Positions 23,854 to 39,709 of a stretch of 64,000 bases of DNA are shown here, piece by piece (position 1 is the stretch's first letter; each line of letters opens with the position of its first letter). A program made the position numbers and the translations under genes. The stretch covers positions 29,091 through 93,090 of the forward strand of contig NJBN01000005.1 in assembly GCA_005223185.1 (NCBI GenBank). The letters are read 5' to 3'. The DNA comes from a candidate division LCP-89 bacterium B3_LCP. GTDB taxonomy: Bacteria > Electryoneota > B3-LCP. Under the pieces are notes generated by a model, which saw only the letters and a program-made list of their open reading frames with translations, had not been told where the DNA came from and did no database searches.

Positions 23854-24687
23854 TTACCCAACCAGACTAGCCACCATCTGCGGCACCATATTAGCCTGCG
23901 CTAACATGGAGATACCGGTCTGCATCAGGATTTGCGACTTGACGAAGTTGGACATTTCTGCAGCGATGTCGGCATCCCGGATCATGGACTCGGAAGCTGT
24001 CGCGTTTTCGCGAGCGGTCATGAGTTCCGAAATGGTTCCCTGCAGACGTTCAACATAGGCGCCAAGCCTGGTTCTTTCAGTGTCCTTGGAATCGATGGCA
24101 GTATCAATGGAACTGATGGCGTTCTGGGCACTTGTAGTGCCAGTTATGGCCAACCCACTGATGCCTAATGCTGACGCTGTCATCGCGTTGAAGGTCACGT
24201 GATAGTAATCTTCATTCTGGACATTATGCGTGCCAATATGGAACTTTACACCCGTACTTGAATAGCTGCCATCCAGCAGATAGAGACCGTTATAATTGGT
24301 CACATTGGCGATACGGGTTACTTCTGAAAGAAGCTGTTGGAATTCCACATCGATCGCCGATCTATCCGAAGAAGTCAGCGTCCCATTTGATGCTTGAATA
24401 GCGAGAGCCCGCATACGTACAAGCGTTTCATCCAGAACTGACAATGCACCTTCAGCAGTTTGGATCATGTTTATGCTTGCATTGGCATTTCTTTCCGCTT
24501 CATCCATCGAGGCGATCTGCGCTCTGAAGCGTTCCGAAATAGCCAATCCCGCGGGATCATCCCATGCGTGATTGATCCTCAAGCCCGTTGATAACCGCTG
24601 TACAGCCCGATCCATTTGATTCTGGGTGTTCCAAATACTCCGCTGTGCGGTCATCGACAGGATGTTGTGATTGATGCGTGTACTCAT
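23854..24687 (-). CDS. fliC: Flagellin (minimal, D0-D1 only, 277 aa)
   Basis: RINHNI, RLSTGLRIN..DDPAGLAISE, IQTAEGAL, ESMIRDADIAAEM, MLAQAN. Confidence 0.97.
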   Translation of the reverse strand: MSTRINHNILSMTAQRSIWNTQNQMDRAVQRLSTGLRINHAWDDPAGLAISERFRAQIASMDEAERNANASINMIQTAEGALSVLDETLVRMRALAIQASNGTLTSSDRSAIDVEFQQLLSEVTRIANVTNYNGLYLLDGSYSSTGVKFHIGTHNVQNEDYYHVTFNAMTASALGISGLAITGTTSAQNAISSIDTAIDSKDTERTRLGAYVERLQGTISELMTARENATASESMIRDADIAAEMSNFVKSQILMQTGISMLAQANMVPQMVASLVG

Positions 24688-24739: not shown

Positions 24740-24767
24740 ATATCGGCTATGAGGTGGTCAACCTTGA
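24740..24767 (-). promoter_or_regulatory. Sigma28 (FliA) promoter of flagellin
   Basis: Minus strand TCAAG-N15-GCCGATAT, about 50 nt upstream of the fliC ATG. Confidence 0.85.
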
Positions 24768-24804: not shown

Positions 24805-25242
24805 TTACCCAAACCGGTTGAAAAAACGGGAATCCTGCGAATAGGGACGCCTGTAAAGATGTAAAGCTTTACGTCCTTTTTGCAGACCACCAATATCTTT
24901 CTTCAACAGAGCGACTTTTTGTCTAACCTCTGCAACGAGCTGCTCATTTTCTGACTGGAGGTCCTCTAACACCCAGCGGATCTTTCTTCTTTCATGGTGT
25001 TGCCAGGCTTCGGATTTTTCATTTTTTAAGGTTTTTATGACCTTCGATAATCCGGTCAACAGTTCATCGCGCCGGGCGACCTCTTCAGCGGCTTTTTCCC
25101 ATTCACCAGCATCGATTAACTCTTTTATGCGGTCTGTGACTACAGGAAGCTCTCCTAAGAGTTCAACACTATGTCGCAATTTGGGTGACAGAGGTAATCT
25201 ACTTTCCAGTTCTTCCTCTGTTTGTACGTTTACATCAATCAT
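24805..25242 (-). CDS. FliT-like flagellar chaperone
   Basis: 145 aa, all-helical; GEWEKAAEEVARRDELL and C-terminal LHLY...RFFN resemble FliT-type proteins; lies beside fliC/fliD/fliS. Confidence 0.55.
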   Translation of the reverse strand: MIDVNVQTEEELESRLPLSPKLRHSVELLGELPVVTDRIKELIDAGEWEKAAEEVARRDELLTGLSKVIKTLKNEKSEAWQHHERRKIRWVLEDLQSENEQLVAEVRQKVALLKKDIGGLQKGRKALHLYRRPYSQDSRFFNRFG

Positions 25243-25255: not shown

Positions 25256-25945
25256 TTAGCTTACAATAGCCTCCGGATTATCCTGCAGGTCCGGCATATT
25301 TTCAGCGTCTTGATCGGACGAAGTCTTCTCTAAGATGCAAAATATCACTTCCCGCCAATCCTGCAGTGCGGGTATTAACTCGTATTCCAACATGTCAGCC
25401 AGCAGCACCCAATCCTGATCGGTCTGTACTTCCAAGATGTTGTCCAGCATCCCAAAAAGGATACGTCGGCTTTCGGCTACAGTCTGTTCATCCTCTCCTT
25501 CAGCTTGAGGAAGGTGCATTAGTTCGAAGCTGATTCCCAGCATTCTACGGCACGATTCCAACGAATGCATGAAGACCTGAATGCCATCTATACACTTCAA
25601 GAATGCCTGGGTAGAACGTTCCATGTTGCCCAGGCGGAATAGTTCTGAAGTACCTTGCAATTCCTGCAGTAGCTGTTGGTGGAAATCCGCTACGCTGTAA
25701 AGCGTCGATCGAGCCAGCGCTTTGGCATCTCCGGTTTGAACTTCCAGAAGTTCGATATCTCCAAGCGGCAACTCTTCCAGGTGCGATTTGTCCTTCCCGG
25801 TGATATCTTCGCCATTCAATTTGACCTCTAACACGCTATCCCCCTGGTCTGCCGCTCGCTCAGAGAGGGTATTCATGAGTTGACCAAAGCTGTCGATCCC
25901 TTCCGTGGGAAAATCTTCGGATTGATTATTGAGGCTTATCTGCAT
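25256..25945 (-). CDS. Hypothetical protein: ThiS-like N-terminus plus helical bundle, in the flagellar glycosylation island
   Basis: 229 aa, acidic; N-terminal MQISLNNQ...LEVKLNGEDI; C-terminal DWVLLADMLEYELIPAL. Confidence 0.6.
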   Translation of the reverse strand: MQISLNNQSEDFPTEGIDSFGQLMNTLSERAADQGDSVLEVKLNGEDITGKDKSHLEELPLGDIELLEVQTGDAKALARSTLYSVADFHQQLLQELQGTSELFRLGNMERSTQAFLKCIDGIQVFMHSLESCRRMLGISFELMHLPQAEGEDEQTVAESRRILFGMLDNILEVQTDQDWVLLADMLEYELIPALQDWREVIFCILEKTSSDQDAENMPDLQDNPEAIVS

Positions 25946-25980
25946 AGTTCCCCCTGTTGTTTTATATCAAATATTTTTAT

Positions 25981-27279
25981 TTAACTAAACCAATTTCGAA
26001 CTATGGAATTCATCTTAGCGATGCGATGACTATATGTATGTTCCTGCAGGACTCTCTCGCGACCAGCATCAATGACAGCCTGACGTGCAGTGGGGTTCTT
26101 TTTATAGAACCTCCATTTTTCCTTAAATTCAATGGTGGAATTGAAGGTAACGATTTCCTTTTCGAGTTCGAACTGTCCCTGGATCGATCTCTGTTGGTCG
26201 GTAATAACGAATCCTCCGGCGGCAGGCACGTCGTAGCAGCGCTGATTTAGGGCTGTGGGCATTTGCATACTGGTTAAATTGAGCACGGCGCCTGCATCCC
26301 GATAGACATTGGGAAGCTTTCGATAGTAATCAACAGGCGGTAATACGCTGGTTTTGCCGTTTAAAATCTTCTTCCATCCTTCATCACCGTAAACCTGAAG
26401 AGTATCAATTTCATCAGACCCGGTTAAATCTCTTAAGAAATTATGACGTTGCTGTCGCGTTGCCATCAGGACGAGCGCTGATTCTAAATTCAGGTCGTTC
26501 AATTGATCGCTTTGCGAATCAGCAGCAGGAGAACATTCCGCAATATCGTATCCCATACCCTGGGCTATCTCAGAATATATTTCCCAGGGTGCATTGTTTC
26601 TTTGGAAAGATTCAGACAGGGCAGTCTGACAGAACCTGGTTGTAAGTTCGGCTGCTAAAGCACCATCAGGATTGGTTGAATCGGGCATCAGATGCTGGGG
26701 CAGTTTGCTGAAGGCTTTTACAACTGCAAAGTCCATAGAATCACCCACGAAAACGACTGAATCGGGATTCGATGAATGATCAGTTACCGCCGAATAGGTG
26801 CCGCCCAAATGGCAAAATGTATCAGGGTCTGTGGCTAAGGGCAATGTCTCTATTTTTTTATAGCCCATCTGTCTCAACCAGGATTCGTAAGCTGCTTCCC
26901 AGAGAAAGATACCAATATTGTCGGAAACGTTCGCTAAATGGTTCAACAGGATGTAGCGGGGGCTGTCAACATACCATACTATCCCCGGTAAACTCAACGC
27001 TTCCAGCAGTTCGGTCAAACGCCCATTCTGATCGAAACCCAAATGATTGATGGTTAAGAGAAAATCCGGTCTTTCAGCCTCATAAGCATCTATTATTTGG
27101 TTTAAGAACAGAGAATACAGCCTGGGATTGTACCCGCTTTCGCCAACGTCATTCAAAGGAATGGTAACTGCACGGCAGCCTTGAGCTTGTAGAGCGCGTT
27201 TGACCTCTTTAATGAGGAAATAACCTGAGTCGATCAGTAGAATACAGCTATTATTGCGGTTATCGCTCTTAGTTAACAC
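25981..27279 (-). CDS. CgeB-like (DUF3880 + GT-B) glycosyltransferase
   Basis: WYVDSP, LPLATDP, LNLTS, LNQRCYDVPAAGGFVITD, EHTYSHR. Confidence 0.82.
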   Translation of the reverse strand: MLTKSDNRNNSCILLIDSGYFLIKEVKRALQAQGCRAVTIPLNDVGESGYNPRLYSLFLNQIIDAYEAERPDFLLTINHLGFDQNGRLTELLEALSLPGIVWYVDSPRYILLNHLANVSDNIGIFLWEAAYESWLRQMGYKKIETLPLATDPDTFCHLGGTYSAVTDHSSNPDSVVFVGDSMDFAVVKAFSKLPQHLMPDSTNPDGALAAELTTRFCQTALSESFQRNNAPWEIYSEIAQGMGYDIAECSPAADSQSDQLNDLNLESALVLMATRQQRHNFLRDLTGSDEIDTLQVYGDEGWKKILNGKTSVLPPVDYYRKLPNVYRDAGAVLNLTSMQMPTALNQRCYDVPAAGGFVITDQQRSIQGQFELEKEIVTFNSTIEFKEKWRFYKKNPTARQAVIDAGRERVLQEHTYSHRIAKMNSIVRNWFS

Positions 27280-27306
27280 TTATTTTGCTCCATTTGGGAT
27301 CGGCCT

Positions 27307-29088
27307 TCAGGCGACATCCATCGTTTCTTCGTTCTCGATTGACTGCCAGCCAATTTGCTCGAAAAGGGCATGCCAATCCTGTAATCCCTGTTTATATAAT
27401 GAACTGATAGTAAATAGCCTGTGATACAGTTTCTCCGTTTCTATCACCAAACTGATGAAATCATCACCCTGAAGGTTCTGTTTTAAGAAATTGAAGTCGA
27501 GAACTAAGTGATTGACCGGTGGCAGTCTGTACCCGGAAACAGTAATTTCAGCATCGATCTTTCCCAGAGTTTCTCCGAACGTTCTGATAAAATCCGGGTC
27601 ATCATCACCAGCAGACCACAGTTCCTGTAAATCCTGACACTGACGCTGACCATCATCAGCAAGGCTCTGCAGACGCAGGATGGAATCATACGTCGGTTCG
27701 AGTTCCTTCCGGAATATGTCAATATCAGGTTCTGAATAATCTCCAATTAGTGGAATAAAGTCCGTGACATTCAATGAATACGCCAAATCTGACTCTTCAC
27801 CGGAAACCATGAGCACTTTCTGCCAGATCAGGCGTGAACAGAGATTAATGTATTCCACGGCGGTAAGCGCGCGTTTTACCACGGGCTTAAGCATCCACAT
27901 TCCTCGGTCATCAAAATCCGTCCGCCAGATATTTACATCTGCAAAGGTCGATTGGCTTTCGAGAGGCACGTCGGTTTTGCCATTCAGCATGTTTTCTGCA
28001 ATCGTGTAAACCGCTTGTGGGGTCACGGTTTCCTGACAGCGATAACGCTGACATTCCACATGGAAACTGCAGGGGTAACAGGACAGCGACGTTTCCATGA
28101 TGTAATGATTTTTCCCATAAGGTCCGGTTTCATGCGATAAAGCGCTGCCGAAACAGAGCGAGAGTACGGGAGTTCCCACTGCCGCAGCGATATGCTGGGT
28201 ACCGGTATCATTGGTAATTAGCAAGTCCATCTTTTTTATTACTGCGCCCAATACCCCTATACTGGTTTTTCCTGCCAGATTTAGAGTATTATTCCCAAGA
28301 GCGCTGGTTATCTCGTGTGCCAATCCCACTTCGCTCGAAGAGCCGAAGACAGCTATGGAGGCACCGCAGTTTTCCTGAAGCTGTTTGCCTAAATCCACGA
28401 AGCATTCTGCGGGCCAGCGTTTACATGCCAAGGAAGCTCCCGGTTGCAAACCTATCTTGAAACCATTTTCTTTATCCGTCCATTTCTTAAGCAGTGCTTC
28501 AGCGCCATCACTGTTGCGCTGTTGCAGTTTCAGGCTGTAATCCTGAATTGCAAAAGGGTTAAAGCCGGATGATGCAGTGTTTACTTCATTGTCATACGCC
28601 AATCCCTTGTTGATGTCAACCAAATTGAAGCGGTTGTGATGACGATTTAGATTTGCAGTAAAAAAGTACCTCGCCCAGGGGTGCCGGATCAGCCTGTAAC
28701 CTTCGGAACCTAAAGTCAATCCCACGGTTTTTTCAACTCCCAGCAAGTAACATATCAATGCTGATATTTTTGAATGGGAGAGGTTCAAAACTTCATCGAA
28801 TTTTTCTGATCTAAGAGAATCAATAAACGTTTTCGTCTCCTGCAACCTGCGGGGAAGTGAATAAATTGCTTCCTTTGATACTGCAACTGAAGCGTTAAAA
28901 TCAAATGGAATCAGTTTATCGATATAGGGTATATGGCGGCAGATATCCATGTAACCCTTTACTGCTAAGTAAGATATGTGTATATCGGGATCAGCCAACT
29001 TCAGTACATGCAGAAGTGGGGATGACTGGAGAATGTCTCCCATGCGGGTTAGATTGATGACCAGTATTTTCTTTTGCTTTTCTCGCAT
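27307..29088 (-). CDS. GT9 (heptosyltransferase-like) glycosyltransferase with a long C-terminal extension
   Basis: ILVINLTRMGDILQ, KRWPAECF, LITNDTGTQHIAAAVGTP, HETGPYG, CYPC..C..C; 593 aa. Confidence 0.85.
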   Translation of the reverse strand: MREKQKKILVINLTRMGDILQSSPLLHVLKLADPDIHISYLAVKGYMDICRHIPYIDKLIPFDFNASVAVSKEAIYSLPRRLQETKTFIDSLRSEKFDEVLNLSHSKISALICYLLGVEKTVGLTLGSEGYRLIRHPWARYFFTANLNRHHNRFNLVDINKGLAYDNEVNTASSGFNPFAIQDYSLKLQQRNSDGAEALLKKWTDKENGFKIGLQPGASLACKRWPAECFVDLGKQLQENCGASIAVFGSSSEVGLAHEITSALGNNTLNLAGKTSIGVLGAVIKKMDLLITNDTGTQHIAAAVGTPVLSLCFGSALSHETGPYGKNHYIMETSLSCYPCSFHVECQRYRCQETVTPQAVYTIAENMLNGKTDVPLESQSTFADVNIWRTDFDDRGMWMLKPVVKRALTAVEYINLCSRLIWQKVLMVSGEESDLAYSLNVTDFIPLIGDYSEPDIDIFRKELEPTYDSILRLQSLADDGQRQCQDLQELWSAGDDDPDFIRTFGETLGKIDAEITVSGYRLPPVNHLVLDFNFLKQNLQGDDFISLVIETEKLYHRLFTISSLYKQGLQDWHALFEQIGWQSIENEETMDVA

Positions 29089-29116
29089 TTAGCGCTTTTT
29101 ATGTAAGTATCATAAT

Positions 29117-30748
29117 TTATGAGACTTCGCTCATCTGAACAGCGCGCTCCACATGCGCATTTAGAGTGTGATTTATCTGTGATATGGATTTCGTCTTCAT
29201 CAAATTGCCAAGATGTTGTTCTATCAGGTGGAAACGGTGCAAAAGCGTATCCATGGCTGCCAGAATCCTTTCCGGTTGACTTAAGCCCTTCGCTGTATCT
29301 CCGCTCAGGCAGTCCATCATATACAGATCGAGTATTGGCCTCATTTGCGGATACTTGGATAAGAGCACTGGCATCTGAATAGCTATTGAATCCATCTGCT
29401 GATCGCTATTTGCGTGTTGATCATTTTCCAGATTGTTCATGGTCTGTTTTGACAATTCGATGAGTTCATTCTTCACGGGTTCGATCACGGCGTAGAATTC
29501 ATCATAGAATTTCGCGGAAACACGTGGCGCTGTTAATAAATCCGTTGATTCAGGATTGAAGATCAGTTCGATAAGAGAGCGCCATAATAGTCGCTGGGAA
29601 TCGTCAGATTTATACTCACCCTTTAGGTTAAGTTTACCCCTGGCATCGAAATATGCGATCTTCTTGATACAACCATCATGGTGATCTAACCGCGATATAT
29701 TCAGCGCATTCATGCAGGTTTCCGCCACTGCAGTGGGAGTGATACTTCTGTGGCATTTGGGATCAGTGCAGAGGATAGATTCGCTGCAGGGGTGGCAGGG
29801 AAGATCGGGTTCAATTGTGATAGCGCCATCGGAATATGGCGCGGTATCCCAAGCTGAAGCCATGGCTAAATAGATTCCCACGCAGGGTTTACCAAGTGAT
29901 GCTGCCAGATGCAGCGATCCGGAATCATTTCCGACAAAAATATCACATTCATCGATCACGCCAGCCAATTGGACGGGATCCGTCTGACCGCATAAGTTCA
30001 GACAATTACCACCTGAATTACGGGCTATTTCTGATGAAATTTCAGCCTCACTATCAGTACCGAGCAGGACGATACCCGCACCTAACTTCGAAATCAATAA
30101 CTCTATTGTTCCCTTCCAGTTACCAGATGACCAGTGCCGTAAAGGATGATTGGCTCCCACTGCTATAGCGATTTTGGCTCTGCCATCGAAGATGTGAAGT
30201 TTATTCCTGGCATATCGAACGGCTTGCTCAGGGACGTTCGGTTTATGAAAATTCCCCCGTTCTCCTGCAGCAATATCACGCTGGACGTCAACCAGATTGA
30301 AACCGTTACAGCTCCTGGATTCTAAAAGAGTGAAGAAATACCGGCTCCAGAAACCGTGCAGGCAGGAACCGGATTCCCGGTCATCCACTCTGCCAAATAG
30401 TTGGCGCGTATCGACAAAACTACAGAACCTGCTTGAAAAGGATGTGTGGGTTAGATTCACTACCTTGTCGGGTTTTATCTGATCAATTTGCTCGAAAATG
30501 TCTTTGAGGCAACTGAGTCCATCAAGGGACATCCCATTTCTGTCCCGCAGAGTGTCCAGTAAAGCATTACCGTCAAAACCTATCACGCCATCAAGCGCTG
30601 GTGACATTTTTGCTAATTCTTGCAGATCGTTCTGAACGATAGCGTAAACTCCTCCATCTCCTGCTGATCTCTGCAAATCCGAGAATGCCGGGAAGTTCTG
30701 CACTATATCACCAATGCGAGCCAGCGATATCACCAAGACGCCACTCAT
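29117..30748 (-). CDS. GT9 glycosyltransferase with C-terminal extension
   Basis: VLVISLARIGDIVQ, FVGNDSGSLHLAASLGKP, WDTAPYS, CHPC..C..C. Start set at ATG 30748. Confidence 0.85.
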   Translation of the reverse strand: MSGVLVISLARIGDIVQNFPAFSDLQRSAGDGGVYAIVQNDLQELAKMSPALDGVIGFDGNALLDTLRDRNGMSLDGLSCLKDIFEQIDQIKPDKVVNLTHTSFSSRFCSFVDTRQLFGRVDDRESGSCLHGFWSRYFFTLLESRSCNGFNLVDVQRDIAAGERGNFHKPNVPEQAVRYARNKLHIFDGRAKIAIAVGANHPLRHWSSGNWKGTIELLISKLGAGIVLLGTDSEAEISSEIARNSGGNCLNLCGQTDPVQLAGVIDECDIFVGNDSGSLHLAASLGKPCVGIYLAMASAWDTAPYSDGAITIEPDLPCHPCSESILCTDPKCHRSITPTAVAETCMNALNISRLDHHDGCIKKIAYFDARGKLNLKGEYKSDDSQRLLWRSLIELIFNPESTDLLTAPRVSAKFYDEFYAVIEPVKNELIELSKQTMNNLENDQHANSDQQMDSIAIQMPVLLSKYPQMRPILDLYMMDCLSGDTAKGLSQPERILAAMDTLLHRFHLIEQHLGNLMKTKSISQINHTLNAHVERAVQMSEVS

Positions 30749-30749
30749 G

Positions 30750-32585
30750 TTAAAGCACCCCCTTTTCCACACCCCAGCGGCGAAACTCGTTCAGCAGTAG
30801 TATCATCCCTTCTGTTCGGGAGAGCTCACCTTCACCTTTTTCTATTTCGCTGGCAATATCCTCCAGGGTTAGCGGACCCCGATCCTTGAAGCGCTCCATT
30901 ACTCCTGCTAAGGCACTACCGGGTTTCTCTCCAACTATGATCTCTTCGGCAGTAGGCAGACCACCTCCCTGCGGCGTCCAGTGGGGATTCCTACCTGCGA
31001 TAACACCCAGCAGTTCTAACATGCGATGTTCGTAAGTGTGCATTGTCAGGACGCGTTGGCGGGCTCTACCGGCAATTTCGATCCTTTCGTGGGGATTAGC
31101 TAAGTAGTGGACGATTCTTTCTCTACAGTCCTGAATAGAATCGAAAGTGATGATTTCATCTCCGACCTCGAAAGATTCTGATAGATATTGACGGTTGTCA
31201 ACCAGTTGGAAAGCACCACAGGCAGCTATTTCGAATGTGCGCGGATTCAGATAATCTCCGAAGGGATTAATGCCGTCATGATAAGTGGAAGAATGTAGAT
31301 TGACGTTTATTTTGGTAGTATTGAAAATCCTGGTGCTGTCCTCGGTGTTTATTCGTTCACCTTCACGCTGGAGCGCAGTTTTCAGAGTGCCCGGGTTGTC
31401 CCAGTCGTTGCCCCAAATTTTGAAGTCCAGATCCAACAATCCCGCAAAGAAATTGCGCCTGTTGTGATAACCTGCTCCAACATGGGATACATTGCCGCCA
31501 AATTCGGATTCTTCCTCTTGAGTTAGCTGCATGGGATTGTGCACATCAGGATTTGCCGCTAAGGGAAGGTAGTTGGGGAAAGGGCAGCCGTTCTCTTTTA
31601 ATTTTTCAGCGTATTCGCCCTTTTGTATGGCGAAGAAATTTTCCACAAAAGGCACAAGAGCCTTCCAGTATTCCAGAATCTGCAGATCTTCTATGAACCA
31701 GAAGGCGGTTTGTATTCCGGCTTTTTTAAGCTCCCGCAATACTTCCGGCGTCAGAGGCGATTGCGCCATTCCTAAAACCAGATCAGCCTTAATTTCCAGT
31801 GCGCGTGCGGTAACTGATTCGGCTAAAAGCGTTGTCAATCCTGAATCTAAGCGCGACTGGTGATTCTTGTTAGAAGTTAAATCGTTTAGATGCTGCATTC
31901 CGGGGTAGAAGACGCTGTTATCGAGCAGTTCACAGCGGTGCCCAAGTTTGTTCAGTGCATCATGAACATGGTAGCTGATGGGCAAAGACCCACCGTACAG
32001 AGGTGAGACCAACAAGATTTTATACCCACCGCGCTTAGTAGTCCACTGTGCCTTAACAATTCCTTTCAGAGTAATATAGAAATCTGGATATAATGAACTG
32101 GAAGCAGGATGTTCTAAAAAAAAGATTTCATCATTCTGTGAGGCACAATAACGAATGATTCTTTCAAAGGATTGTACTGCGCTTAAGCCGACCAACAGGC
32201 GGACTTTATCCGGCAGAAAGCCTACCGGACGATTCGCCAGAACAGCAGCCGCAAGACCCGGATCCTTTTCAACGATGATCAGGCGTTCTGGAGGAATGAT
32301 TTTCAATAGTTCATCAACGTGATAGCCGAATCCTATCCCGCCCAAAACGTAGGTTTTATTATCATTTGCGTGGAGATCACACGACTCCATCCATTTCTGA
32401 GCTTCTGCAATGGGGTTATAAGTGCTGTGCAGACATTTTTTATTCACCACTGGGATGGCTTCACCTGATTTGGCGGTGCGAATTTCTGGATAACCCGGAT
32501 CGTACGATTGGCGCAGGAGGTCAGCTAAGCGTTCATCAGAAGCTGCGATTTTTTTAAGGTTACCTTCTAAGTTGTTAGAGGGCAT
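30750..32585 (-). CDS. Maf-N-like domain fused to a CgeB-like glycosyltransferase
   Basis: N-terminal LHSTYNPIAEA...GGIGFGYHV...IIVEKD (N-domain of motility-accessory-factor proteins); then AFWFIED, YLPLAA, INVNLHSS, NPRTFEIAACGAFQLVD, HTYEHR. Confidence 0.8.
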   Translation of the reverse strand: MPSNNLEGNLKKIAASDERLADLLRQSYDPGYPEIRTAKSGEAIPVVNKKCLHSTYNPIAEAQKWMESCDLHANDNKTYVLGGIGFGYHVDELLKIIPPERLIIVEKDPGLAAAVLANRPVGFLPDKVRLLVGLSAVQSFERIIRYCASQNDEIFFLEHPASSSLYPDFYITLKGIVKAQWTTKRGGYKILLVSPLYGGSLPISYHVHDALNKLGHRCELLDNSVFYPGMQHLNDLTSNKNHQSRLDSGLTTLLAESVTARALEIKADLVLGMAQSPLTPEVLRELKKAGIQTAFWFIEDLQILEYWKALVPFVENFFAIQKGEYAEKLKENGCPFPNYLPLAANPDVHNPMQLTQEEESEFGGNVSHVGAGYHNRRNFFAGLLDLDFKIWGNDWDNPGTLKTALQREGERINTEDSTRIFNTTKINVNLHSSTYHDGINPFGDYLNPRTFEIAACGAFQLVDNRQYLSESFEVGDEIITFDSIQDCRERIVHYLANPHERIEIAGRARQRVLTMHTYEHRMLELLGVIAGRNPHWTPQGGGLPTAEEIIVGEKPGSALAGVMERFKDRGPLTLEDIASEIEKGEGELSRTEGMILLLNEFRRWGVEKGVL

Positions 32586-32640
32586 GTGAATTTCCTTGTA
32601 GAATCGAACGGAATTTATATCTGTGTTCAGTGATTTTCAT

Positions 32641-34446
32641 CTATGACTGGTTAAAGAGAACTCTTCTCCTTGTGGTGCTATTTTTCGCAATGGCTTCGGG
32701 GCTGAAATCGAAATTACGACTCTGGTTGTGCACGTCGTCAAGTAACAACTGCTTCTCATCATCAGATATGGGTATCTCTTCAATCGCTTCCCATTTAGCT
32801 GGGTCATTTGATTTAGTAAGGAATTGCACCAGCATTTCCATGCCTTCTTTACGGCAGTATGAGCTCAATAGCATCTTGGCGAATTTCAATCGTAGTTCGG
32901 GATTCCAAGGCTGCAATTCGACAGCTTTTCCTAAAACGATAATGGCAAAATCAGGAGAATTGCAACGCTGCAGTAGATCTGCACAATGGGTCAATGCCGT
33001 CCAGGTTTTGGGCGAAACTACAATCGCCATCTGCAAAGCATCGAAGGCATTCCAGCGGCAAGGGTGCGACCCAGAACGGTTGATGCCATTTTCCAGAAGC
33101 CAGCCGGCTTCTTCCATGAGATCTGCTAAATAGAGATAATCTGATGCTAAAAATTCTTCAGTTTTAGCTAACTGACCCAAATAGTCAGGATCATAATCGC
33201 TGATGCGCAGATGATGACAGAGGCTTTGTAGGGCATCGGCGGCAGATTCATAATCCGCCAGCATCTTTTGACACCAGAACATTCCCCAATGTGCTCGCAA
33301 GCAAGAGGGATCACAATCGAGGGCTTTTTTCAGGGATTCCAGCGCGTCTTGAGGTTTGTCATCCTCCATAGCTTGAGCGGCGAGTTCAAAATGGAGATCA
33401 GCCGAATCATTTTTAGATGACGTGGCGTCCAGCAGAAGGCGCACACCTTCATCTTTTAATTTCCCCACGGGTTGATCGGGCCAACGGTTTGCCAACTGCA
33501 GGAAGGATTTGCCAAAATGATAGGATCTGTGGGTATCAACGGTATTATTTATGTCAGGCAAGCACTCCTGGACAATTTGCATGAATTGTTCAGCACGTTT
33601 GTCAATCGTATGCTTTTCCTTTATTATTTTGGCTCCTTCATCGGCAATCTGCTTCCGTTTAGAATCATCATTAAGCAGGGTTTCAACATTTCTTATCAGA
33701 TTTTCCGGTCTGAAGGAAACCAGGTGCTTCCCATCTTTAAAGAATTCCCTCCAGCTACCATCGCTTTCTTCCGTTAAAAGGCAGGTTCCACAAGCCATGA
33801 TCTCCAAAGTGCGCAGATTAAGTCCGGGGAACATGTTTTCGTTCAAGACTATCTTAGACTGGTTGTAGATCGATCGGACTGCATTAGGTGGCAGTGAACG
33901 GTGACCTTCACCATCGAATATTTCCACACTGAAATGCCTCTGTAATTCCTGCAGAAGCCAGCTCCTTTTAGGTCGAACTGCCGGATTAAGTGAACCAACG
34001 AAAGCGATATCATAGAGGGTGTCTTCTTTCTGTGGGTAATACAAATTGTGATCTGCTGCCAGAGGCATCCAGTGGATACGTTCTGATTCCTGCGGATGCA
34101 GCTTACAGATTTCATCCACGACAGCCTTTTGATCCAAAAAAGCCAGATCAAAGCCAAGAGCGAAATCGAACTGCCAGAATTTGTTCATGGGGCTGTCTAT
34201 GCCGAAGAAAACTTTGGGAATCTGGACTCTTTCCAATCCCAACGGTACGGACCGTAAATTCAAAGAATCGGAAAAGAGCAAAATGTCAGGTTTAAAGGGG
34301 CAATGCGACAGAATCTGTTCAATGGTAATGGTATTCAATTCGTACTGAAAATCCGCTAACGTGTCCGGACTGGCGTAGAACAGCTCACAGCCCAAATCGC
34401 GTAGACTTTTTACGAAGTAGGAGTCGTTTACTAATAAGATGCGCAT
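32641..34446 (-). CDS. GT-B (CgeB/Glyco_trans_1_2-like) glycosyltransferase with C-terminal TPR repeats
   Basis: WMPLAAD, DIAFVGS, KIVLNE, NLRTLEIMACGTCLLTE, KHTIDKR, then TPR-like helices (ALESLKKALDCDP, LGKAVELQP). Confidence 0.78.
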   Translation of the reverse strand: MRILLVNDSYFVKSLRDLGCELFYASPDTLADFQYELNTITIEQILSHCPFKPDILLFSDSLNLRSVPLGLERVQIPKVFFGIDSPMNKFWQFDFALGFDLAFLDQKAVVDEICKLHPQESERIHWMPLAADHNLYYPQKEDTLYDIAFVGSLNPAVRPKRSWLLQELQRHFSVEIFDGEGHRSLPPNAVRSIYNQSKIVLNENMFPGLNLRTLEIMACGTCLLTEESDGSWREFFKDGKHLVSFRPENLIRNVETLLNDDSKRKQIADEGAKIIKEKHTIDKRAEQFMQIVQECLPDINNTVDTHRSYHFGKSFLQLANRWPDQPVGKLKDEGVRLLLDATSSKNDSADLHFELAAQAMEDDKPQDALESLKKALDCDPSCLRAHWGMFWCQKMLADYESAADALQSLCHHLRISDYDPDYLGQLAKTEEFLASDYLYLADLMEEAGWLLENGINRSGSHPCRWNAFDALQMAIVVSPKTWTALTHCADLLQRCNSPDFAIIVLGKAVELQPWNPELRLKFAKMLLSSYCRKEGMEMLVQFLTKSNDPAKWEAIEEIPISDDEKQLLLDDVHNQSRNFDFSPEAIAKNSTTRRRVLFNQS

Positions 34447-35924
34447 TTTGCCGCCTCTTTTGGGGTTATCATTTCTCGTCCGCCTATCAAGTCAACGCAA
34501 ATCGGTTCCAGTATCTGGCGGGCTTTTTCTTTGGCTCTGGTCACTTTATCATTGGGGATGGTGCGCGGTAACTGCAGATCAGCAGCAGCCGCTGACCAAC
34601 TTTTTAGAATATTTTTATGAATATCTGATGGTTCGATATCAGGCAAGCCATACATGCGGTTATCCAGCAAATGTGTCGGTTCACTCAAATTAAAGATTGT
34701 TCTGACAATGGTAGTGAAAGCGTCTATTTCCGGCACGGATTTCCGTATTCCCAGCAATTGATAAGACTGACCTTCTTTTGTGCGTTTTGAGCGGAATAAC
34801 TGCAAACCAACACCAAACCGGTAGTCATCTCTTATTGTATCCGATCTGGCGAGGCTGCTCAGCAGTCCGCTTATGCTACCAGAGGCAGCATAGGTAGTCA
34901 GACACTTATAACCACATTGTTCAGCAAGCAAGGCATTGCAGGGATAATCGTTGCAATCAGGCGTCAAGATCAAATGATCATTCCCTAAAGGACCAGTGTC
35001 ATGCAAGCCAGCATCGCCAAAATAGATGCCCAATACTCTGGTTCCAACAGCAGCAGCCCAGTGTAAAGGACCGGTGTCAACTCCTATCACAAGATCCACT
35101 GTTCGGAAGAGCGCCAGTAACTCTGCGGGTGAAAGCTCCCCTACCAAATTAACCACCCTCTCTGCCAGAGGATGCGAAGCATTCAGAAACCTACGCGCTA
35201 ATTCCTTTTCGGCTTTACCACCTACCAAGACACAGTTGGGCCGGATATCCTCTGGGACTCCCTTCCACCAGTTGGCGAAAACTTTGGGATCAATCCGCCG
35301 CGCTTTTCCACCCGAACCCACTATAAACGCCCAGGTCTGCCTCTGGGGATTCATTTCAAATTGGTTAATAAGAGGGATTCTACCTCTTCTCTCTTTCGGT
35401 TCGGACAGACGGTAATCGGTTAATTCAGTCTTTGGACAACCCGCCAGATATCCCCACAGATCACTCAGGTGGATCCGGTTCCATTCGCGGGCTTTAGCGA
35501 TAGCCCGCAGGTAAGACCGCAGGAGAATCAGGCGATGGTTTACCCATCCATACGGATCTTCACTTCTAACTATTGAGGAAATAATATCACAGACCGGATG
35601 ATCGTTCAAGGAAAAGACGGAACAGGATGCAAGATTGGATATTGCCTGGATGTCCGCATGGAGCTTCTGTATTACCTGTGGGACGTTTAGATCTTCTTCA
35701 GTGGCAATTTTCCTCCACAAGCATGTGTCAATCGTATGGACACCGTCAATCCCAGGCAGTTGTTCAGCCCAGTCCTCAACTATATTGTCACAGATCAGAT
35801 TTATTTTAAAATAACTTTTTAGCCTATTAATCAAAGGCAGCATCTGCACTAAATCGCCCAGACGCGCCAATTGGCATATGGTTGTTCGTTCCTGGGAATG
35901 GGCGCTTTGGGACTCTGACATCAT
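34431..35924 (-). CDS. GT9 glycosyltransferase with C-terminal extension
   Basis: ICQLARLGDLVQMLP, VIGVDTGPLHWAAAVGT, HDTGPLG, CNDYPC..C..C; 497 aa. Confidence 0.83.
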   Translation of the reverse strand: MMSESQSAHSQERTTICQLARLGDLVQMLPLINRLKSYFKINLICDNIVEDWAEQLPGIDGVHTIDTCLWRKIATEEDLNVPQVIQKLHADIQAISNLASCSVFSLNDHPVCDIISSIVRSEDPYGWVNHRLILLRSYLRAIAKAREWNRIHLSDLWGYLAGCPKTELTDYRLSEPKERRGRIPLINQFEMNPQRQTWAFIVGSGGKARRIDPKVFANWWKGVPEDIRPNCVLVGGKAEKELARRFLNASHPLAERVVNLVGELSPAELLALFRTVDLVIGVDTGPLHWAAAVGTRVLGIYFGDAGLHDTGPLGNDHLILTPDCNDYPCNALLAEQCGYKCLTTYAASGSISGLLSSLARSDTIRDDYRFGVGLQLFRSKRTKEGQSYQLLGIRKSVPEIDAFTTIVRTIFNLSEPTHLLDNRMYGLPDIEPSDIHKNILKSWSAAAADLQLPRTIPNDKVTRAKEKARQILEPICVDLIGGREMITPKEAAKCASY

Positions 35925-35962: not shown

Positions 35963-36889
35963 TTACAGGAAATCTGCCAATGATGGCTGAATAACCATAC
36001 TACCCACATTCAAAGCAACCTGATAGGCGTTCTGCTCCAGGGTCATATCGGTCATCAGTTCGACTAAGTCGGCATCTTCCTTTTCCGAAAGCTGACCAGT
36101 CAGAGCTGTCTCCTTGAATAAAAGGCTGCTTTGCAGGTTAGTCAGTCTGGTTACTCTGGATCCAGCTAAAGATGCAAACGCTGAAGTAGTGTCCATAACG
36201 GTGTCAATCTGGGTGATGGTCTCACCCACAAGATCTACATCACCGGCTTGTAATGCGTTTCGCAAATTTATCAGAACCTGAAACATATCTTCACTGCCAC
36301 CAGATCCGTCTGGCTGGAAAAGTTCTGCACCGGCAATGTTGATCTGAATGCTTTCGCTCGAGCCTACCTGCCGCATGACCGAACCGGTCGTTCCATCCGG
36401 ATTAGCAATTATGGCGGTAATCTGATCGGTTACTGGATCCCGAGTAGCTATAAACGGGGAGGTATTAGTGTTGGTACCGCCGAACATATATTTTCCCGAA
36501 TACTGGTCATTGGCAAGGGCAAATATATTCTCCAGATAGCTATCAACTTCGTTTGCAAGATCAGCCATAGCTTCCGCTCCCAAAGCGCTGTTGCTGCCCT
36601 CGACAGCGTCAGCACGAGCCTGAGTTAAGATATCATTGAGCTGTTGAATTACCGATTCAGTACTCCCCAGCCAGTTCACCCCGCTCTGAACGTTCTCCTG
36701 GAACTGTGAATTCTGGCTTAGATGCGAACGCAACTCTAAAATCAAGCCAGCAGCCGCAGGATCATCCGAAGCGTAGAAAACTTGCTTCCCTGACGATAAC
36801 TGCTGCTGAAGATCATTCAAAGATCTCATCCGTTCATTCAGAGTACGGATCAGATCGTTTACCATCATGTTATTGGTTATTCGCTGCAT
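35963..36889 (-). CDS. flgL: Hook-filament junction protein FlgL
   Basis: MQRITNNMM, QQQLSSGKQVFYASDDPAAA, GKYMFGG, EDADLVELMTD. Confidence 0.95.
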   Translation of the reverse strand: MQRITNNMMVNDLIRTLNERMRSLNDLQQQLSSGKQVFYASDDPAAAGLILELRSHLSQNSQFQENVQSGVNWLGSTESVIQQLNDILTQARADAVEGSNSALGAEAMADLANEVDSYLENIFALANDQYSGKYMFGGTNTNTSPFIATRDPVTDQITAIIANPDGTTGSVMRQVGSSESIQINIAGAELFQPDGSGGSEDMFQVLINLRNALQAGDVDLVGETITQIDTVMDTTSAFASLAGSRVTRLTNLQSSLLFKETALTGQLSEKEDADLVELMTDMTLEQNAYQVALNVGSMVIQPSLADFL

Positions 36890-36922: not shown

Positions 36923-37309
36923 TCATCCGGCTAAACTCTGAACCATGCCCTGTAATTCGTTCATGTTAAACGGTTTCGGCAGCAAGAAGTCCACGATTCT
37001 ATCACTGAGCATACGATGAACGTCATCATTGGCGTATGAGGTCATCAGCGCCAGGGGTAGTTCAGGGAATTTCTGCCGCACTCTTTTCACCAGTGCAAGA
37101 CCGTCCATGCCCTCCATTTTGACGTCGGAAATCAGCAGATCAACGGAACTCTCATCGATCAAATTCAAGGCGGCTTCACCGCTGCTGACGCCGTGCACTT
37201 CATAACCTAGATCAGCTATCATCTCAGCGATTATTTCGCGGACGTCACGTTCGTCGTCCACGACCAGCACTTTTTTGGGCTTAAGTCTTACGGCTGCTAA
37301 AGCTTCCAT
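36923..37309 (-). CDS. Single-domain response regulator (receiver only)
   Basis: VLVVDDE, LLISDVKM (phospho-Asp), LMTSY, PKPF; no output domain. Confidence 0.9.
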   Translation of the reverse strand: MEALAAVRLKPKKVLVVDDERDVREIIAEMIADLGYEVHGVSSGEAALNLIDESSVDLLISDVKMEGMDGLALVKRVRQKFPELPLALMTSYANDDVHRMLSDRIVDFLLPKPFNMNELQGMVQSLAG

Positions 37310-39307: not shown

Positions 39308-39709
39308 TTATTTAGGGGTATTATCCGTCTCTTCAGTTTGATGGTTTCCATCTTCCCGGCTTTCGTTCAGGTTAGGAAACCCCGATGAATTGGGTGGATT
39401 CTGGTCTTCAGTCAATTGCCCAAAGAGCACCTCAGCCAACCCCAGACCACCGGCCTGAGACAGGCTGCGCGCCATAGCTTCTATGGTGATATCACCGTAC
39501 ATTTTCGAGGTACCGTTACCTTCTCCCCCCAATGAACGTTCCAGGTGTGATTCCTTCAACAACTGGCGAAGGAAGATCTCTTCAAACTTCTTACAAGCTT
39601 CTTCTAATTCCTGATTTCCTTTGGGCGCTTTTGGGCTGGTGGCAGTGCTATCACTCGCCTTTATATCACCAATAACGTCCACTGTGTCTATGTCTATCGA
39701 ATTCGGCAT
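39308..39709 (-). CDS. flgJ: FlgJ, rod-binding domain only (no muramidase domain)
   Basis: LEEACKKFEEIFLRQLLK...GGLGLAEVL; 133 aa; follows flgI. Confidence 0.85.
   Translation of the reverse strand: MPNSIDIDTVDVIGDIKASDSTATSPKAPKGNQELEEACKKFEEIFLRQLLKESHLERSLGGEGNGTSKMYGDITIEAMARSLSQAGGLGLAEVLFGQLTEDQNPPNSSGFPNLNESREDGNHQTEETDNTPK

What the first reader, a model, noticed from the sequence alone, without database searches (positions are those of the whole stretch)
25256..35924. Six-glycosyltransferase island inside the flagellar operon: candidate new flagellar glycosylation system
Seen: about 10 kb between flgL and fliT/fliC encodes, in transcription order, GT9, GT-TPR, MafN-CgeB GT, GT9, GT9, CgeB GT and the ThiS-like protein, with gaps of only tens of bp, no terminator, and no nucleotide-sugar synthesis genes (no pse/leg/neu, rml or gmh). 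Known: flagellin O-glycosylation normally uses Maf or FlmG enzymes with nonulosonic acids made by linked pathways; GT9 enzymes use ADP-heptose. Inference: a multi-step assembly line building a complex, possibly heptose-containing oligosaccharide on a minimal flagellin from housekeeping donors. I do not know a characterised system with this 3 GT9 + 3 CgeB architecture.
Basis: partly seen in the sequence, partly recalled or inferred. Interest (0 to 1): 0.78.

Follow-up and report, generated by a model that had tools for sequence, protein, structure and literature searches.

The report
Uncharacterised flagellar glycosyltransferase gene cluster
Seven tightly packed genes between flgL and the flagellin gene encode six soluble sugar-transferring enzymes and a small helper-like protein. 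Three of these genes recur next to flagellar filament genes in many bacterial phyla, so this is most likely an undescribed way of adding sugars to flagellin.

Summary
On the minus strand, 25256-35924 holds three GT9 genes (gtA, gtD, gtE), three PF13524 "CgeB-like" genes (gtB with TPR, gtC, gtF) and a 229-aa protein (orfG). Gaps run from -23 to +55 bp. There is no intergenic terminator and no sugar-nucleotide gene anywhere in the 64 kb.

New findings:
- A three-gene core, gtC-gtE-orfG, recurs across Nitrospirota, Nitrospinota, Desulfobacterota, Hydrogenedentota, Calditrichota and unclassified MAGs.
- All six Pfam-annotated contexts place it beside fliC-fliD-fliS.
- The gtC N-terminus is the N-domain of Maf flagellin glycosyltransferases, but the Maf catalytic domain is replaced.
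- gtE is a canonical GT9 fold. It keeps the residues that align with what I recall as the WaaC catalytic and ADP-heptose-binding residues, and adds a 200-aa helical domain found almost only in this subfamily.
- orfG is DUF8042, not a ThiS-type carrier. It is a beta-grasp plus four-helix bundle and may be analogous to the Maf adaptor GlfM.
- All proteins are soluble.

The best reading is cytoplasmic O-glycosylation of the 277-aa flagellin before export. Heptose as the sugar is plausible but untested. No paper in the searchable library describes this system. I rate it a new variant of a known kind, with moderate-to-high interest.

The parts
35963..36889 (-). flgL (hook-filament junction protein), the upstream boundary of the cluster
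   Evidence: Pfam Flagellin_N, E = 1.2e-18. It is 60% identical to the L001 gene in the same position.
34431..35924 (-). gtA: a GT9-type glycosyltransferase (497 aa) with its own roughly 150-aa C-terminal extension. It is an accessory, lineage-specific gene.
   Evidence: PF01075, E = 4.4e-14. It is 26% identical to gtE over 354 aa. It has a Cys4 motif, C324-x4-C-x7-C-x3-C, and no membrane segment. Its extension is unrelated to the gtE C-domain.
32641..34446 (-). gtB: an N-terminal PF13524-type GT-B half-domain followed by a C-terminal TPR region (601 aa). It is a candidate substrate-binding glycosyltransferase.
   Evidence: PF13524, E = 1.4e-22, at residues 163-290. TPR_19 and other TPR families match residues 338-545. 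The L001 orthologue is 47% identical. Relatives carry a larger GT + CgeB + methyltransferase + TPR protein of about 1100 aa in this position.
30750..32585 (-). gtC: a Maf-N-like domain (about residues 1-190) followed by DUF3880 and a PF13524 glycosyltransferase domain (611 aa). Core gene 1.
   Evidence: PF13524, E = 2.7e-36; DUF3880, E = 4.9e-6. The N-terminus matches PF20157 Maf_flag10_N at E = 0.0066 in this protein, and in 17 of 21 homologues with a best E of 4.7e-14. In my label-based tally a PF13524-type gene lies directly upstream of a GT9 gene in 31 loci.
29117..30772 (-). gtD: a GT9-type glycosyltransferase (551 aa; the likely true start is the ATG at 30748) with its own roughly 190-aa helical extension. 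Accessory gene.
   Evidence: PF01075, E = 5.5e-22. It is 28% identical to gtE over 362 aa. Cys4 motif C326-x2-C-x5-C-x4-C. Its extension is unrelated to the gtE C-domain.
27307..29088 (-). gtE: a GT9 glycosyltransferase (residues 1-370) with a conserved beta-hairpin and four-helix C-domain (about residues 378-582). Core gene 2.
   Evidence: PF01075, E = 1.9e-31. The AlphaFold model has pLDDT 89. Foldseek matches WaaF (1psw, 1.2e-16), 3tov and WaaC. D18, K223, E253 and D294-T-G-x-x-H299 align with WaaC D13, K192, E222 and D261..H266, and these columns are invariant or nearly so in 33 homologues. The C-domain profile finds 480 cluster representatives among 1.84 billion proteins; in the full-length (~550-600 aa) matches it sits at about residues 360-580.
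25981..27279 (-). gtF: a PF13524 (CgeB-like) glycosyltransferase of 432 aa. In relatives it is fused to the C-terminus of gtE.
   Evidence: PF13524, E = 1.3e-27. In L002 the best matches of both gtE and gtF fall in one 1003-aa gene. PF01075 + PF13524 proteins of about 1000 aa are 45-47% identical to gtE (P0020, P0023, P0024).
25256..25945 (-). orfG: a DUF8042 protein (229 aa) with an N-terminal beta-grasp-like domain and a four-helix bundle. Core gene 3 and candidate adaptor.
   Evidence: The identical database protein P0121 carries PF27299 (TP0873_N) plus PF26154 (DUF8042). The AlphaFold model has pLDDT 84, with strands and a helix in residues 1-72 and helices 74-105, 108-136, 156-175 and 179-209. 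No PDB fold match reaches E <= 0.001. It lies directly downstream of a GT9 gene in 34 loci.
24805..25242 (-). FliT-like small helical protein (145 aa)
   Evidence: PF05400 FliT, E = 1.1e-5, 26.6 bits against a cut-off of 29.5. An unannotated or faint-FliT gene of 100-145 aa sits in the same position in L001, L002, L003, L084 and L063.
24740..24767 (-). Sigma-28 (FliA)-like promoter of fliC: TCAA-N16-GCCGATAT, followed by the ribosome-binding site AAGGAGGA
   Evidence: Read directly from the sequence. The consensus TAAA-N15-GCCGATAA is from my own knowledge.
23854..24687 (-). fliC: a minimal flagellin (277 aa) and the presumed acceptor
   Evidence: Flagellin_N, E = 1.2e-43; Flagellin_C, E = 4.2e-22. 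It has 53 Ser/Thr, 15 of them in the central segment 141-195. It is 69-77% identical to the flagellins of distant genomes that carry the module.

Best explanation
This is a cytoplasmic glycosylation system for the flagellar filament. It is transcribed with the late flagellar genes flgK-flgL.

The conserved core has three parts:
- gtC: a Maf-type N-domain joined to a CgeB-type GT-B catalytic domain.
- gtE: a GT9 enzyme with a family-specific helical C-domain.
- orfG: DUF8042, a beta-grasp plus four-helix bundle.

Proposed mechanism (inferred, not shown): the non-catalytic modules recruit unfolded or chaperone-bound flagellin. These modules are the Maf-N domain, the gtB TPRs, the gtE C-domain and orfG acting as an adaptor in the manner of GlfM. 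One enzyme puts the first sugar on Ser/Thr of the exposed central segment of the 277-aa flagellin. The other transferases (gtA, gtB, gtD, gtF) extend or diversify a short glycan before export through the flagellar type III channel.

The GT9 enzymes most likely use ADP-heptose drawn from the LPS-core pathway. The donors of the CgeB-type enzymes are unknown.

Shown here: gene content, domain make-up, folds, retention of the residues that align with WaaC's catalytic residues, solubility, conserved synteny with filament genes, and gene fusions.

Inferred: the acceptor, the donors, the order of action and the adaptor role.
For: 1. Position and operon structure. The seven genes lie between flgL and FliT-like/fliC, with gaps of -23 to +55 bp and no intergenic terminator. 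fliC has its own sigma-28-like promoter.

2. Conserved synteny.
- The gene order is identical in L001 at 39-65% identity.
- The core sits beside fliC-fliD-fliS in all six Pfam-annotated contexts: L001, L002, L003, L084, L085 and L086. These show two different arrangements.
- Of 61 loci with a module-type GT9, 20 have filament or hook-associated genes within about 10 kb. I estimate about 1% would be expected at random.
- In Hydrogenedentota the core lies next to fliW.

3. Domains that point to flagellar substrates.
- Maf_flag10_N is found in 17 of 21 gtC-type proteins.
- gtB has TPRs. TPRs bind flagellin in FlmG (PMC7591256) and in Maf-1 (bioRxiv 10.1101/2023.12.03.569772).
- L003 has a GT2 fused to a FlgN domain.

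4. The enzymes look active.
- gtE has a GT9 fold.
- The columns aligning with WaaC D13, K192, E222 and D261-x4-H266 are conserved.
- gtA and gtD keep the Asp and the D-[TS]-G-x-x-H motif (read).

5. Functional coupling. gtE and gtF are fused in relatives. GT9 is directly followed by DUF8042 in 34 loci.

6. Cytoplasmic location. No protein has a membrane segment; the maximum 19-residue hydropathy is <= 1.65. The window holds no flippase, polymerase or lipid-carrier genes.

7. Precedents.
- Cytoplasmic protein O-heptosylation by TibC/AAH (PMC4358343).
- Reported heptosylation of ETEC FliC (PMC5000012).
- The four-helix-bundle adaptor GlfM, encoded next to Maf-2.
Against: - There is no experimental evidence for any member, and I found no glycoproteomic data for any carrier organism.
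- The core is not always flagellum-linked. In Nitrospinales (L011), Desulfovibrio falkowii (L063) and Desulfomicrobium (L038) it stands among unrelated genes. In 41 of 61 module loci my limited query set found no flagellar gene.
- The donor cannot be read from sequence. No ADP-heptose genes are in the window or in the six Pfam-annotated relatives' loci, and I could not check the rest of the genome.
- The gtE C-domain and DUF8042 show no significant profile similarity to FlgN, FliS or FliT.
- orfG matches no solved fold.
- Homology of orfG to GlfM was not tested.
Confidence: 0.62

Rival explanations
1. The same enzymes glycosylate other exported axial proteins (FlgK, FlgL, FliD or the hook) instead of, or as well as, flagellin.
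For: The cluster starts directly after flgK-RR-flgL and appears to be co-transcribed with them. L003 has a GT2 fused to FlgN, the chaperone of FlgK/FlgL. A FliT-like gene follows DUF8042 in several loci; FliT is the FliD chaperone, which I state from my own knowledge.
Against: In the second arrangement (L085, L086) the module follows fliC-fliD-fliS and is far from flgK/flgL. The Maf-N and TPR modules are known only from flagellin-directed enzymes. Flagellin is by far the most abundant acceptor.
Confidence: 0.13
2. The genes build LPS/LOS core or another cell-envelope glycan, as GT9 enzymes usually do, and lie in the flagellar locus for co-regulation or by chance.
For: GT9 enzymes characterised so far are mostly LPS heptosyltransferases. 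gtE scores 119 bits on the WaaF model TIGR02195 and matches WaaF and WaaC by fold. PF13524/DUF3880 proteins occur in Acinetobacter LOS outer-core loci (papers listed). In some lineages the core stands apart from flagellar genes.
Against: All NCBIfam LPS-heptosyltransferase scores are below the equivalog cut-offs (119 against 134.6; 101 against 185). No lpx, kdt, waaL, flippase or polymerase gene appears in the window or in the six annotated contexts. The module-type GT9 carries a 200-aa C-domain that is absent from the solved WaaC/WaaF/3tov chains of 326-349 aa. The Maf-N domain, the TPRs and the FlgN fusion also argue against this. Synteny with fliC holds across phyla.
Confidence: 0.08
3. Some or all of the proteins are non-catalytic. 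They would act as glycosyltransferase-fold scaffolds, chaperones or regulators of late flagellar assembly, as in the dual role of Listeria GmaR (from my own knowledge).
For: The proteins carry large non-catalytic extensions: the gtE C-domain, the gtA and gtD tails, the TPRs and orfG. A response regulator is embedded in the operon at 36923-37309. The PF13524 hits cover only the C-terminal half of a GT-B fold.
Against: The gtE columns that align with the WaaC catalytic Asp, the phosphate-binding Lys and the D-T-G-x-x-H motif are invariant or nearly so across 33 homologues from many phyla. Six paralogous enzymes are maintained at 39-60% identity between the window and L001. That pattern fits enzymes under selection better than scaffolds.
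Confidence: 0.05

Closest known systems
Maf (motility-associated factor) flagellin glycosyltransferases with the adaptor GlfM (Shewanella oneidensis Maf-2/GlfM; bioRxiv 10.1101/2023.12.03.569772)
   Same: Both are soluble enzymes encoded in the flagellar locus. The gtC family shares the Maf N-terminal domain (PF20157; 17 of 21 homologues). A small four-helix-bundle protein is encoded directly beside the transferase (orfG here, GlfM there). TPR-bearing and TPR-less transferases coexist, as with Maf-1 and Maf-2.
   Different: The MAF_flag10 (DUF115, GT-A-like) catalytic domain is absent and is replaced by DUF3880 plus a PF13524 GT-B-type domain. There is no nonulosonic-acid pathway in the window. 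orfG is 229 aa with an extra beta-grasp domain, against 89 aa for GlfM. Sequence homology to GlfM was not tested; the only link is a matching F-R ... D-x-x-E pattern, and that is a lead.
FlmG-class flagellin glycosyltransferases (Caulobacter crescentus; PMC7591256)
   Same: Both are modular, with a TPR module plus a GT-B-type transferase. They are cytoplasmic, act on small (about 273-aa) flagellins and are encoded with flagellar genes. gtB has both modules.
   Different: The domain order is reversed: gtB has the transferase first and the TPRs last. FlmG transfers pseudaminic acid made by linked genes, and there are none here. One FlmG enzyme is reported as sufficient, whereas here six transferases are kept together. 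Sequence relatedness to FlmG was not tested.
BAHT protein O-heptosyltransferases TibC/AAH (PMC4358343)
   Same: They are a precedent for cytoplasmic transfer of heptose from ADP-heptose onto Ser of a secreted protein by a WaaC-like GT-B enzyme. They have a Cys4 metal knuckle inserted near the end of the C-lobe (TibC Cys339/342/358/370). gtA, gtD and gtE each have a Cys4 motif at the corresponding place (gtE C337/340/346/351).
   Different: The gtE-family profile finds no TibC chain in the PDB even at E <= 10. There is no N-terminal beta-barrel. The Cys4 motif also occurs in 15 of 40 short, ordinary GT9 proteins, so it does not mark protein-directed enzymes. The acceptors differ: autotransporters there, presumably flagellin here.
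LPS heptosyltransferases WaaC/WaaF and the Veillonella GT9 3tov (CAZy GT9)
   Same: They share the same Pfam family and the same fold. The columns aligning with the WaaC catalytic Asp, Lys, Glu and D-T-G-x-x-H donor-binding motif are conserved.
   Different: NCBIfam scores are below every LPS-heptosyltransferase equivalog cut-off. gtE has an extra 200-aa C-domain, and gtA and gtD have other tails. The context is flagellar, not LPS. There are no lipid A/Kdo genes nearby.
Multi-gene flagellin glycosylation islands such as the Pseudomonas aeruginosa a-type island (from my own knowledge, not checked here)
   Same: Several glycosyltransferases are encoded between flagellar genes and build an O-linked oligosaccharide on flagellin.
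   Different: Those islands carry sugar-nucleotide synthesis genes and transferases of other families. None is known to me with GT9, PF13524 and DUF8042.

Membership tests
GT9 / Pfam PF01075 (heptosyltransferase family) | Profile match above the curated threshold | tested here: met
   gtA scores 52.8 bits, gtD 78.7 bits and gtE 109.7 bits, against a cut-off of 22.
GT9 / Pfam PF01075 (heptosyltransferase family) | GT-B fold superposable on WaaC/WaaF | tested here: met
   The gtE model (pLDDT 89) matches 1psw at E = 1.2e-16, 3tov at 1.6e-15 and 2h1h at 9e-13, with target TM-scores of 0.75-0.79. gtA and gtD were not modelled.
GT9 / Pfam PF01075 (heptosyltransferase family) | Catalytic Asp and ADP-heptose-binding residues (WaaC D13, K192, E222, D261-T-G-x-x-H266; residue roles recalled from the WaaC structure papers) | tested here: met
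   gtE D18, K223, E253 and D294-T-G-T-Q-H299 align to them. These columns are invariant or at least 90% conserved in 33 homologues. gtA and gtD keep the Asp and D-[TS]-G-x-x-H but have R in place of K (read).
GT9 / Pfam PF01075 (heptosyltransferase family) | ADP-heptose as donor | not testable with these tools
   This needs an enzyme assay or the glycan structure. No gmhA/hldE/gmhB/hldD genes are in the window, and the rest of the genome is not available.
LPS heptosyltransferase I/II/III (NCBIfam equivalogs TIGR02193/02195/02201) | Score above the equivalog cut-off | tested here: not met
   Best case is gtE: 119.0 against 134.6 (II), 100.9 against 185.3 (I) and 79.9 against 170.2 (III). gtA and gtD score far lower.
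Maf flagellin glycosyltransferases | Maf N-terminal domain (PF20157) | tested here: met
   17 of 21 gtC-type N-domains match, best E = 4.7e-14. The window's own copy is weak (E = 0.0066, 16.4 bits against a cut-off of 23.5).
Maf flagellin glycosyltransferases | MAF_flag10 / DUF115 catalytic domain (PF01973) | tested here: not met
   PF01973 does not match any of the seven proteins at E <= 0.01. gtC has DUF3880 plus PF13524 in its place.
Maf flagellin glycosyltransferases | Linked nonulosonic-acid (Pse/Leg) pathway | tested here: not met
   None in 64 kb, and none in the six annotated relatives' loci.
FlmG class | TPR module plus GT-B module in one protein | tested here: inconclusive
   gtB has both but in the reverse order: transferase at 163-290 and TPRs at 338-545. 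FlmG has TPRs at 1-313 and the transferase at 309-596.
FlmG class | Sequence homology to FlmG | not tested
BAHT (TibC/AAH) | Sequence relatedness to TibC, and an N-terminal beta-barrel | tested here: not met
   The gtE-family profile finds no TibC chain at E <= 10. The gtE model starts directly with the Rossmann strand at residues 7-11.
BAHT (TibC/AAH) | Cys4 iron finger in the C-lobe | tested here: inconclusive
   A Cys4 motif is present in gtA, gtD and gtE and is at least 90% conserved in the gtE family. It is also present in 15 of 40 short GT9 proteins. Metal binding and its role are unknown.
GlfM-type adaptor | Small soluble four-helix bundle encoded next to the transferase | tested here: met
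   The orfG model has helices 74-105, 108-136, 156-175 and 179-209. It follows a GT9 gene directly in 34 loci. It differs from GlfM in size and in having an added beta-grasp domain.
GlfM-type adaptor | Sequence homology to GlfM; binding to the transferase and to flagellin | not tested
   No GlfM sequence was available. The only link is the pattern F103-R104 ... D184-x-x-E187 against GlfM F24-R25 ... D77-x-x-E80. The profile search returned no proteins of about 90 aa among the 120 of 253 hits that were listed.
PF13524 Glyco_trans_1_2 (CgeB-like) | Profile match above the threshold | tested here: met
   gtB scores 80.7 bits, gtC 125.1 and gtF 96.9, against a cut-off of 25. DUF3880 is above its cut-off only in gtC (27.1 against 25.2).
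DUF8042 (PF26154) with TP0873_N (PF27299) | Profile match | tested here: met
   The precomputed Pfam annotation of P0121, which is 100% identical to orfG, and of more than 100 homologues shows both families. The local, older Pfam copy lacks these models.

The most novel reading that the evidence does not exclude
The gtC-gtE-orfG core would be a previously unrecognised, phylum-spanning class of flagellin glycosyltransferase system, alongside Maf, FlmG and the GT2-type enzymes. It would be tripartite:
- a GT9 enzyme that O-heptosylates a protein from ADP-heptose;
- a Maf-N/CgeB chimeric transferase;
- a DUF8042 adaptor that is the GlfM counterpart.

That would make heptose a regular flagellar sugar in Nitrospirota, Nitrospinota, Desulfobacterota and many uncultured lineages.
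Probability: 0.35. Interest if true: 0.78.

Novelty: new variant of a known kind. Interest (0 to 1): 0.62.

Why it matters
- Flagellin glycosylation is known mainly from pathogens and a few model organisms. Nearly all characterised systems use Maf, FlmG or GT2-type enzymes with linked sugar pathways.
- This module would extend flagellin glycosylation to ecologically important groups that are hard to culture, including nitrite oxidisers and sulfate reducers.
- It would give GT9 a protein-directed role outside the BAHT family.
- It would give a first functional context to three unannotated elements: DUF8042/TP0873_N, the GT9 C-domain and the Maf-N/CgeB chimera.
- It offers a self-contained, soluble enzyme set that needs no dedicated sugar pathway. 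That is attractive for glyco-engineering in ADP-heptose-producing hosts such as E. coli.

Tried and rejected
- Exact look-up of the window's own gtE found no record, so the source contig could not be read beyond the window.
- 'ThiS-like sulfur carrier' for orfG is rejected. The beta-grasp is an N-terminal domain followed by a four-helix bundle, so there is no free C-terminal Gly-Gly. The family is DUF8042.
- 'Foreign genomic island' is rejected. GC content is 0.45-0.48, the same as the flanks.
- Are the gtE C-domain or DUF8042 diverged FlgN, FliS or FliT chaperones? hhalign probabilities were all <= 6%. The best was DUF8042 against FliS at E = 0.006. This is not supported.
- Do the gtA and gtD tails match the gtE C-domain? 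No.
- BAHT membership: the profile does not find TibC.
- Cys4 motif as a marker of protein-directed GT9: rejected, because it also occurs in short GT9 proteins.
- PDB fold search for orfG returned only generic helical bundles with E >= 0.1.
- Literature searches combining flagellin with heptosyltransferase, GT9, CgeB, DUF8042, TP0873, DUF3880 or PF13524 found nothing describing this system.
- The supplement of the GlfM preprint is not held, so GlfM could not be aligned.
- Rfam and tRNA scans of the window found nothing.

Full report
**What is there**

The whole stretch from about 44 kb to 21 kb of the window is one minus-strand flagellar block. In order it reads: GT2, flgF, flgG, flgA, flgH, flgI, a rod-binding-only FlgJ, flgN, flgK, a CheY-like response regulator, flgL, seven further genes, a FliT-like gene, fliC, fliD, fliS and an FlgM-like gene, followed by mutS.

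- gtA: GT9, 497 aa.
- gtB: PF13524 domain plus TPRs, 601 aa.
- gtC: DUF3880 plus PF13524, 611 aa.
- gtD: GT9, 551 aa.
- gtE: GT9, 593 aa.
- gtF: PF13524, 432 aa.
- orfG: 229 aa.

Distances between neighbours run from -23 to +55 bp. The only terminator-like hairpins on the coding strand lie inside genes.

fliC is set off by 117 bp. That gap holds a sigma-28-like TCAA-N16-GCCGATAT element and a strong ribosome-binding site.

GC content does not differ from the flanks.

Pfam scans of the ORFs of at least 110 aa that do not overlap a longer ORF found no sugar-nucleotide synthesis genes of any kind.

**The enzymes**

The three GT9 proteins are old paralogues, 23-28% identical to each other. The three PF13524 proteins are even more distant from one another.

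gtE was modelled with 33 homologues and reached pLDDT 89:
- Residues 1-370 form a GT-B fold that matches WaaF, the Veillonella GT9 3tov and WaaC.
- The sequence alignment to WaaC pairs gtE D18, K223, E253 and D294-T-G-x-x-H299 with WaaC D13, K192, E222 and D261..H266.
- I recall those WaaC residues as the catalytic base and the ADP-heptose contacts.
- The matching columns are invariant or nearly so in the family.

All NCBIfam LPS-heptosyltransferase models score below their equivalog cut-offs.

After the GT9 fold, gtE has a beta-hairpin and four long helices (residues 385-580). A profile of this C-domain finds 480 cluster representatives among 1.84 billion proteins. In the full-length matches of about 550-600 aa it lies at residues ~360-580; about a third of the listed matches are shorter, probably fragments. 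It is therefore a dedicated appendage of this GT9 subfamily. No Pfam model covers it.

gtA and gtD have different tails.

Each GT9 carries a Cys4 motif just before the last helix of the C-lobe. The place recalls the iron finger of the protein heptosyltransferase TibC. However, the motif also occurs in ordinary short GT9 proteins, and TibC is not found by the family profile. I treat it as a resemblance only.

None of the seven proteins has a membrane segment.

**gtC and orfG**

The first 190 residues of gtC match PF20157, the N-terminal domain of Maf flagellin glycosyltransferases. The match is weak in the window's copy (E = 0.0066) but clear across the family: 17 of 21 homologues hit, with a best E of 4.7e-14. 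The Maf catalytic domain itself is absent. gtC is thus a chimera of a Maf N-domain with a CgeB-type transferase.

orfG belongs to DUF8042 with TP0873_N, and every homologue is labelled 'hypothetical'. Its model (pLDDT 84) is a beta-grasp-like domain followed by a four-helix bundle, with no significant match among solved structures. It is not a ThiS-type carrier.

**Distribution**

A scan of one genome per species, together with six exact-protein look-ups, gave 86 loci.
- 61 loci contain a module-type GT9, meaning one with the C-domain and/or followed by DUF8042.
- In 34 loci DUF8042 follows the GT9 gene directly.
- In 31 loci a PF13524-type gene precedes it.

Carriers are labelled Nitrospirota/Nitrospira, Nitrospinota, Desulfovibrionaceae, Desulfomicrobium, Syntrophales, Hydrogenedentota, Calditrichota, Acidobacteriota and unclassified MAGs.

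The window's closest relative is a Lac Pavin sediment MAG, at 51% identity for gtE. Some close homologues are labelled Zixibacteria. The source organism itself is not among the species representatives.

All six contexts with Pfam annotation place the core beside fliC-fliD-fliS, in one of two arrangements:
- flgL - transferases - DUF8042 - small FliT-like gene - fliC.
- fliC - fliD - fliS - (FliT-like) - transferases - DUF8042.

Of the 61 module loci, 20 have filament or hook-associated genes within about 10 kb. I would expect about 1% by chance.

The link is not absolute. In Nitrospinales, Desulfovibrio falkowii and Desulfomicrobium the core stands among unrelated genes. In Hydrogenedentota it is next to fliW.

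Accessory content varies between loci:
- GT2-TPR proteins.
- A protein of about 1100 aa combining GT, CgeB, methyltransferase and TPR modules.
- A GT2 fused to a FlgN domain.
- gtE-gtF fusions of about 1000 aa.

**How it most likely works**

The features are:
- soluble enzymes;
- transcription with late flagellar genes;
- protein-recognition modules known from flagellin-directed enzymes;
- a small helical partner protein;
- no lipid-carrier, flippase or polymerase genes.

Together these fit the known logic of flagellin O-glycosylation: modification in the cytoplasm before export.

I propose that gtC, gtE and orfG form the core machine and that gtA, gtB, gtD and gtF extend or vary the glycan. 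This is inference.

ADP-heptose is the default donor for the GT9 enzymes. Two precedents support the idea: protein O-heptosylation by TibC/AAH, and reported heptosylation of ETEC flagellin. The donors of the CgeB-type enzymes are unknown.

The adaptor role of orfG rests on analogy with GlfM, the 89-aa four-helix bundle encoded next to Shewanella Maf-2 that bridges it to flagellin. GlfM's conserved F24-R25 and D77-x-x-E80 have a counterpart in DUF8042: F103-R104 at the end of bundle helix 1 and D184-x-x-E187 at the start of the last helix. I could not obtain a GlfM sequence, so this remains a lead.

**Rivals**

- An LPS or other envelope-glycan role is unlikely. The arguments against it are the sub-threshold equivalog scores, the extra domains, the absence of envelope genes and the flagellar synteny.
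- Modification of FlgK, FlgL or FliD, instead of or besides flagellin, cannot be excluded.
- A purely non-catalytic role conflicts with the invariant gtE columns that align with WaaC's catalytic residues.

**Comparison and novelty**

The system works like the Maf/GlfM and FlmG systems but is a member of neither:
- The Maf catalytic domain and the nonulosonic-acid pathway are absent.
- The gtB domain order is the reverse of FlmG's.
- It is not a BAHT.

Full-text searches of the library found no description of GT9, PF13524 or DUF8042 proteins in flagellin modification. I therefore class it as a new variant of a known kind, flagellar glycosylation systems.

Interest is moderate to high. The module is widespread, it gives a functional context to three unannotated protein elements, and it is readily testable in E. 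coli or Desulfovibrio. Every functional statement is still inference from sequence.

Noticed in passing
window 36923-37309 (-): A single-domain CheY-like response regulator (128 aa; Response_reg, E = 3e-26) is inserted between flgK and flgL. It is conserved in the closest relative L001 (63% identity) but missing from the same position in the other annotated loci that cover it (L003, L084, L085).
   Followed up: partly
window 44235-45095 (-): A GT2-family glycosyltransferase (286 aa) lies directly upstream of flgF, at the head of the flagellar block. It may be a seventh transferase of the same system. Relatives have GT2-TPR proteins inside the module.
   Followed up: partly
window 23854-24687 (-); L002, L003, L084: The minimal flagellin is 69-77% identical to the flagellins of distant module-bearing genomes (69-71% in L002, L003 and L084; 77% in the close relative L001). 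Most other flagellar proteins of those distant genomes are only 27-52% identical to the window's. This is unusually strong conservation of the presumed acceptor.
   Followed up: partly
L002 10001-13012; proteins P0020, P0023, P0024, P0036, P0038: In relatives gtE and gtF are a single protein of about 1000 aa: GT9, then the C-domain, then the CgeB-type domain. This is a Rosetta-stone fusion.
   Followed up: yes
L003 8713-9990: A 425-aa protein combines a GT2 domain with a FlgN (FlgK/FlgL chaperone) domain inside a related module.
   Followed up: no
L011 4734-8165; L023 4680-8006; L086 3759-6854: Nitrospinales, Hydrogenedentota and another lineage encode a protein of about 1100 aa that combines GT1, PF13524, SAM-methyltransferase and TPR modules upstream of the gtC-gtE core. 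This suggests methylated sugars in those lineages.
   Followed up: no
L063 8433-12675 (Desulfovibrio falkowii): Here the GT9 + C-domain / DUF8042 / 127-aa trio follows a 492-aa protein with a VgrG3-like C-terminal (peptidoglycan-related) domain. It is not near flagellin genes.
   Followed up: no
window 39308-39709 (-) and 50750-51217 (-): FlgJ here has only the rod-binding domain (133 aa). A DPBB-domain (PF03330, 'Lytic transglycolase'; possibly RlpA-like) gene lies 11 kb away. The partner hydrolase for rod insertion is not evident in the block.
   Followed up: no
window 52148-53065 (-): A 305-aa ORF between dihydroorotate dehydrogenase and a pyridine-nucleotide-disulfide oxidoreductase gene has no Pfam match.
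   Followed up: no
window 1-64000: There is no tRNA gene and no Rfam family at gathering threshold in 64 kb. Almost all genes are on the minus strand.
   Followed up: yes
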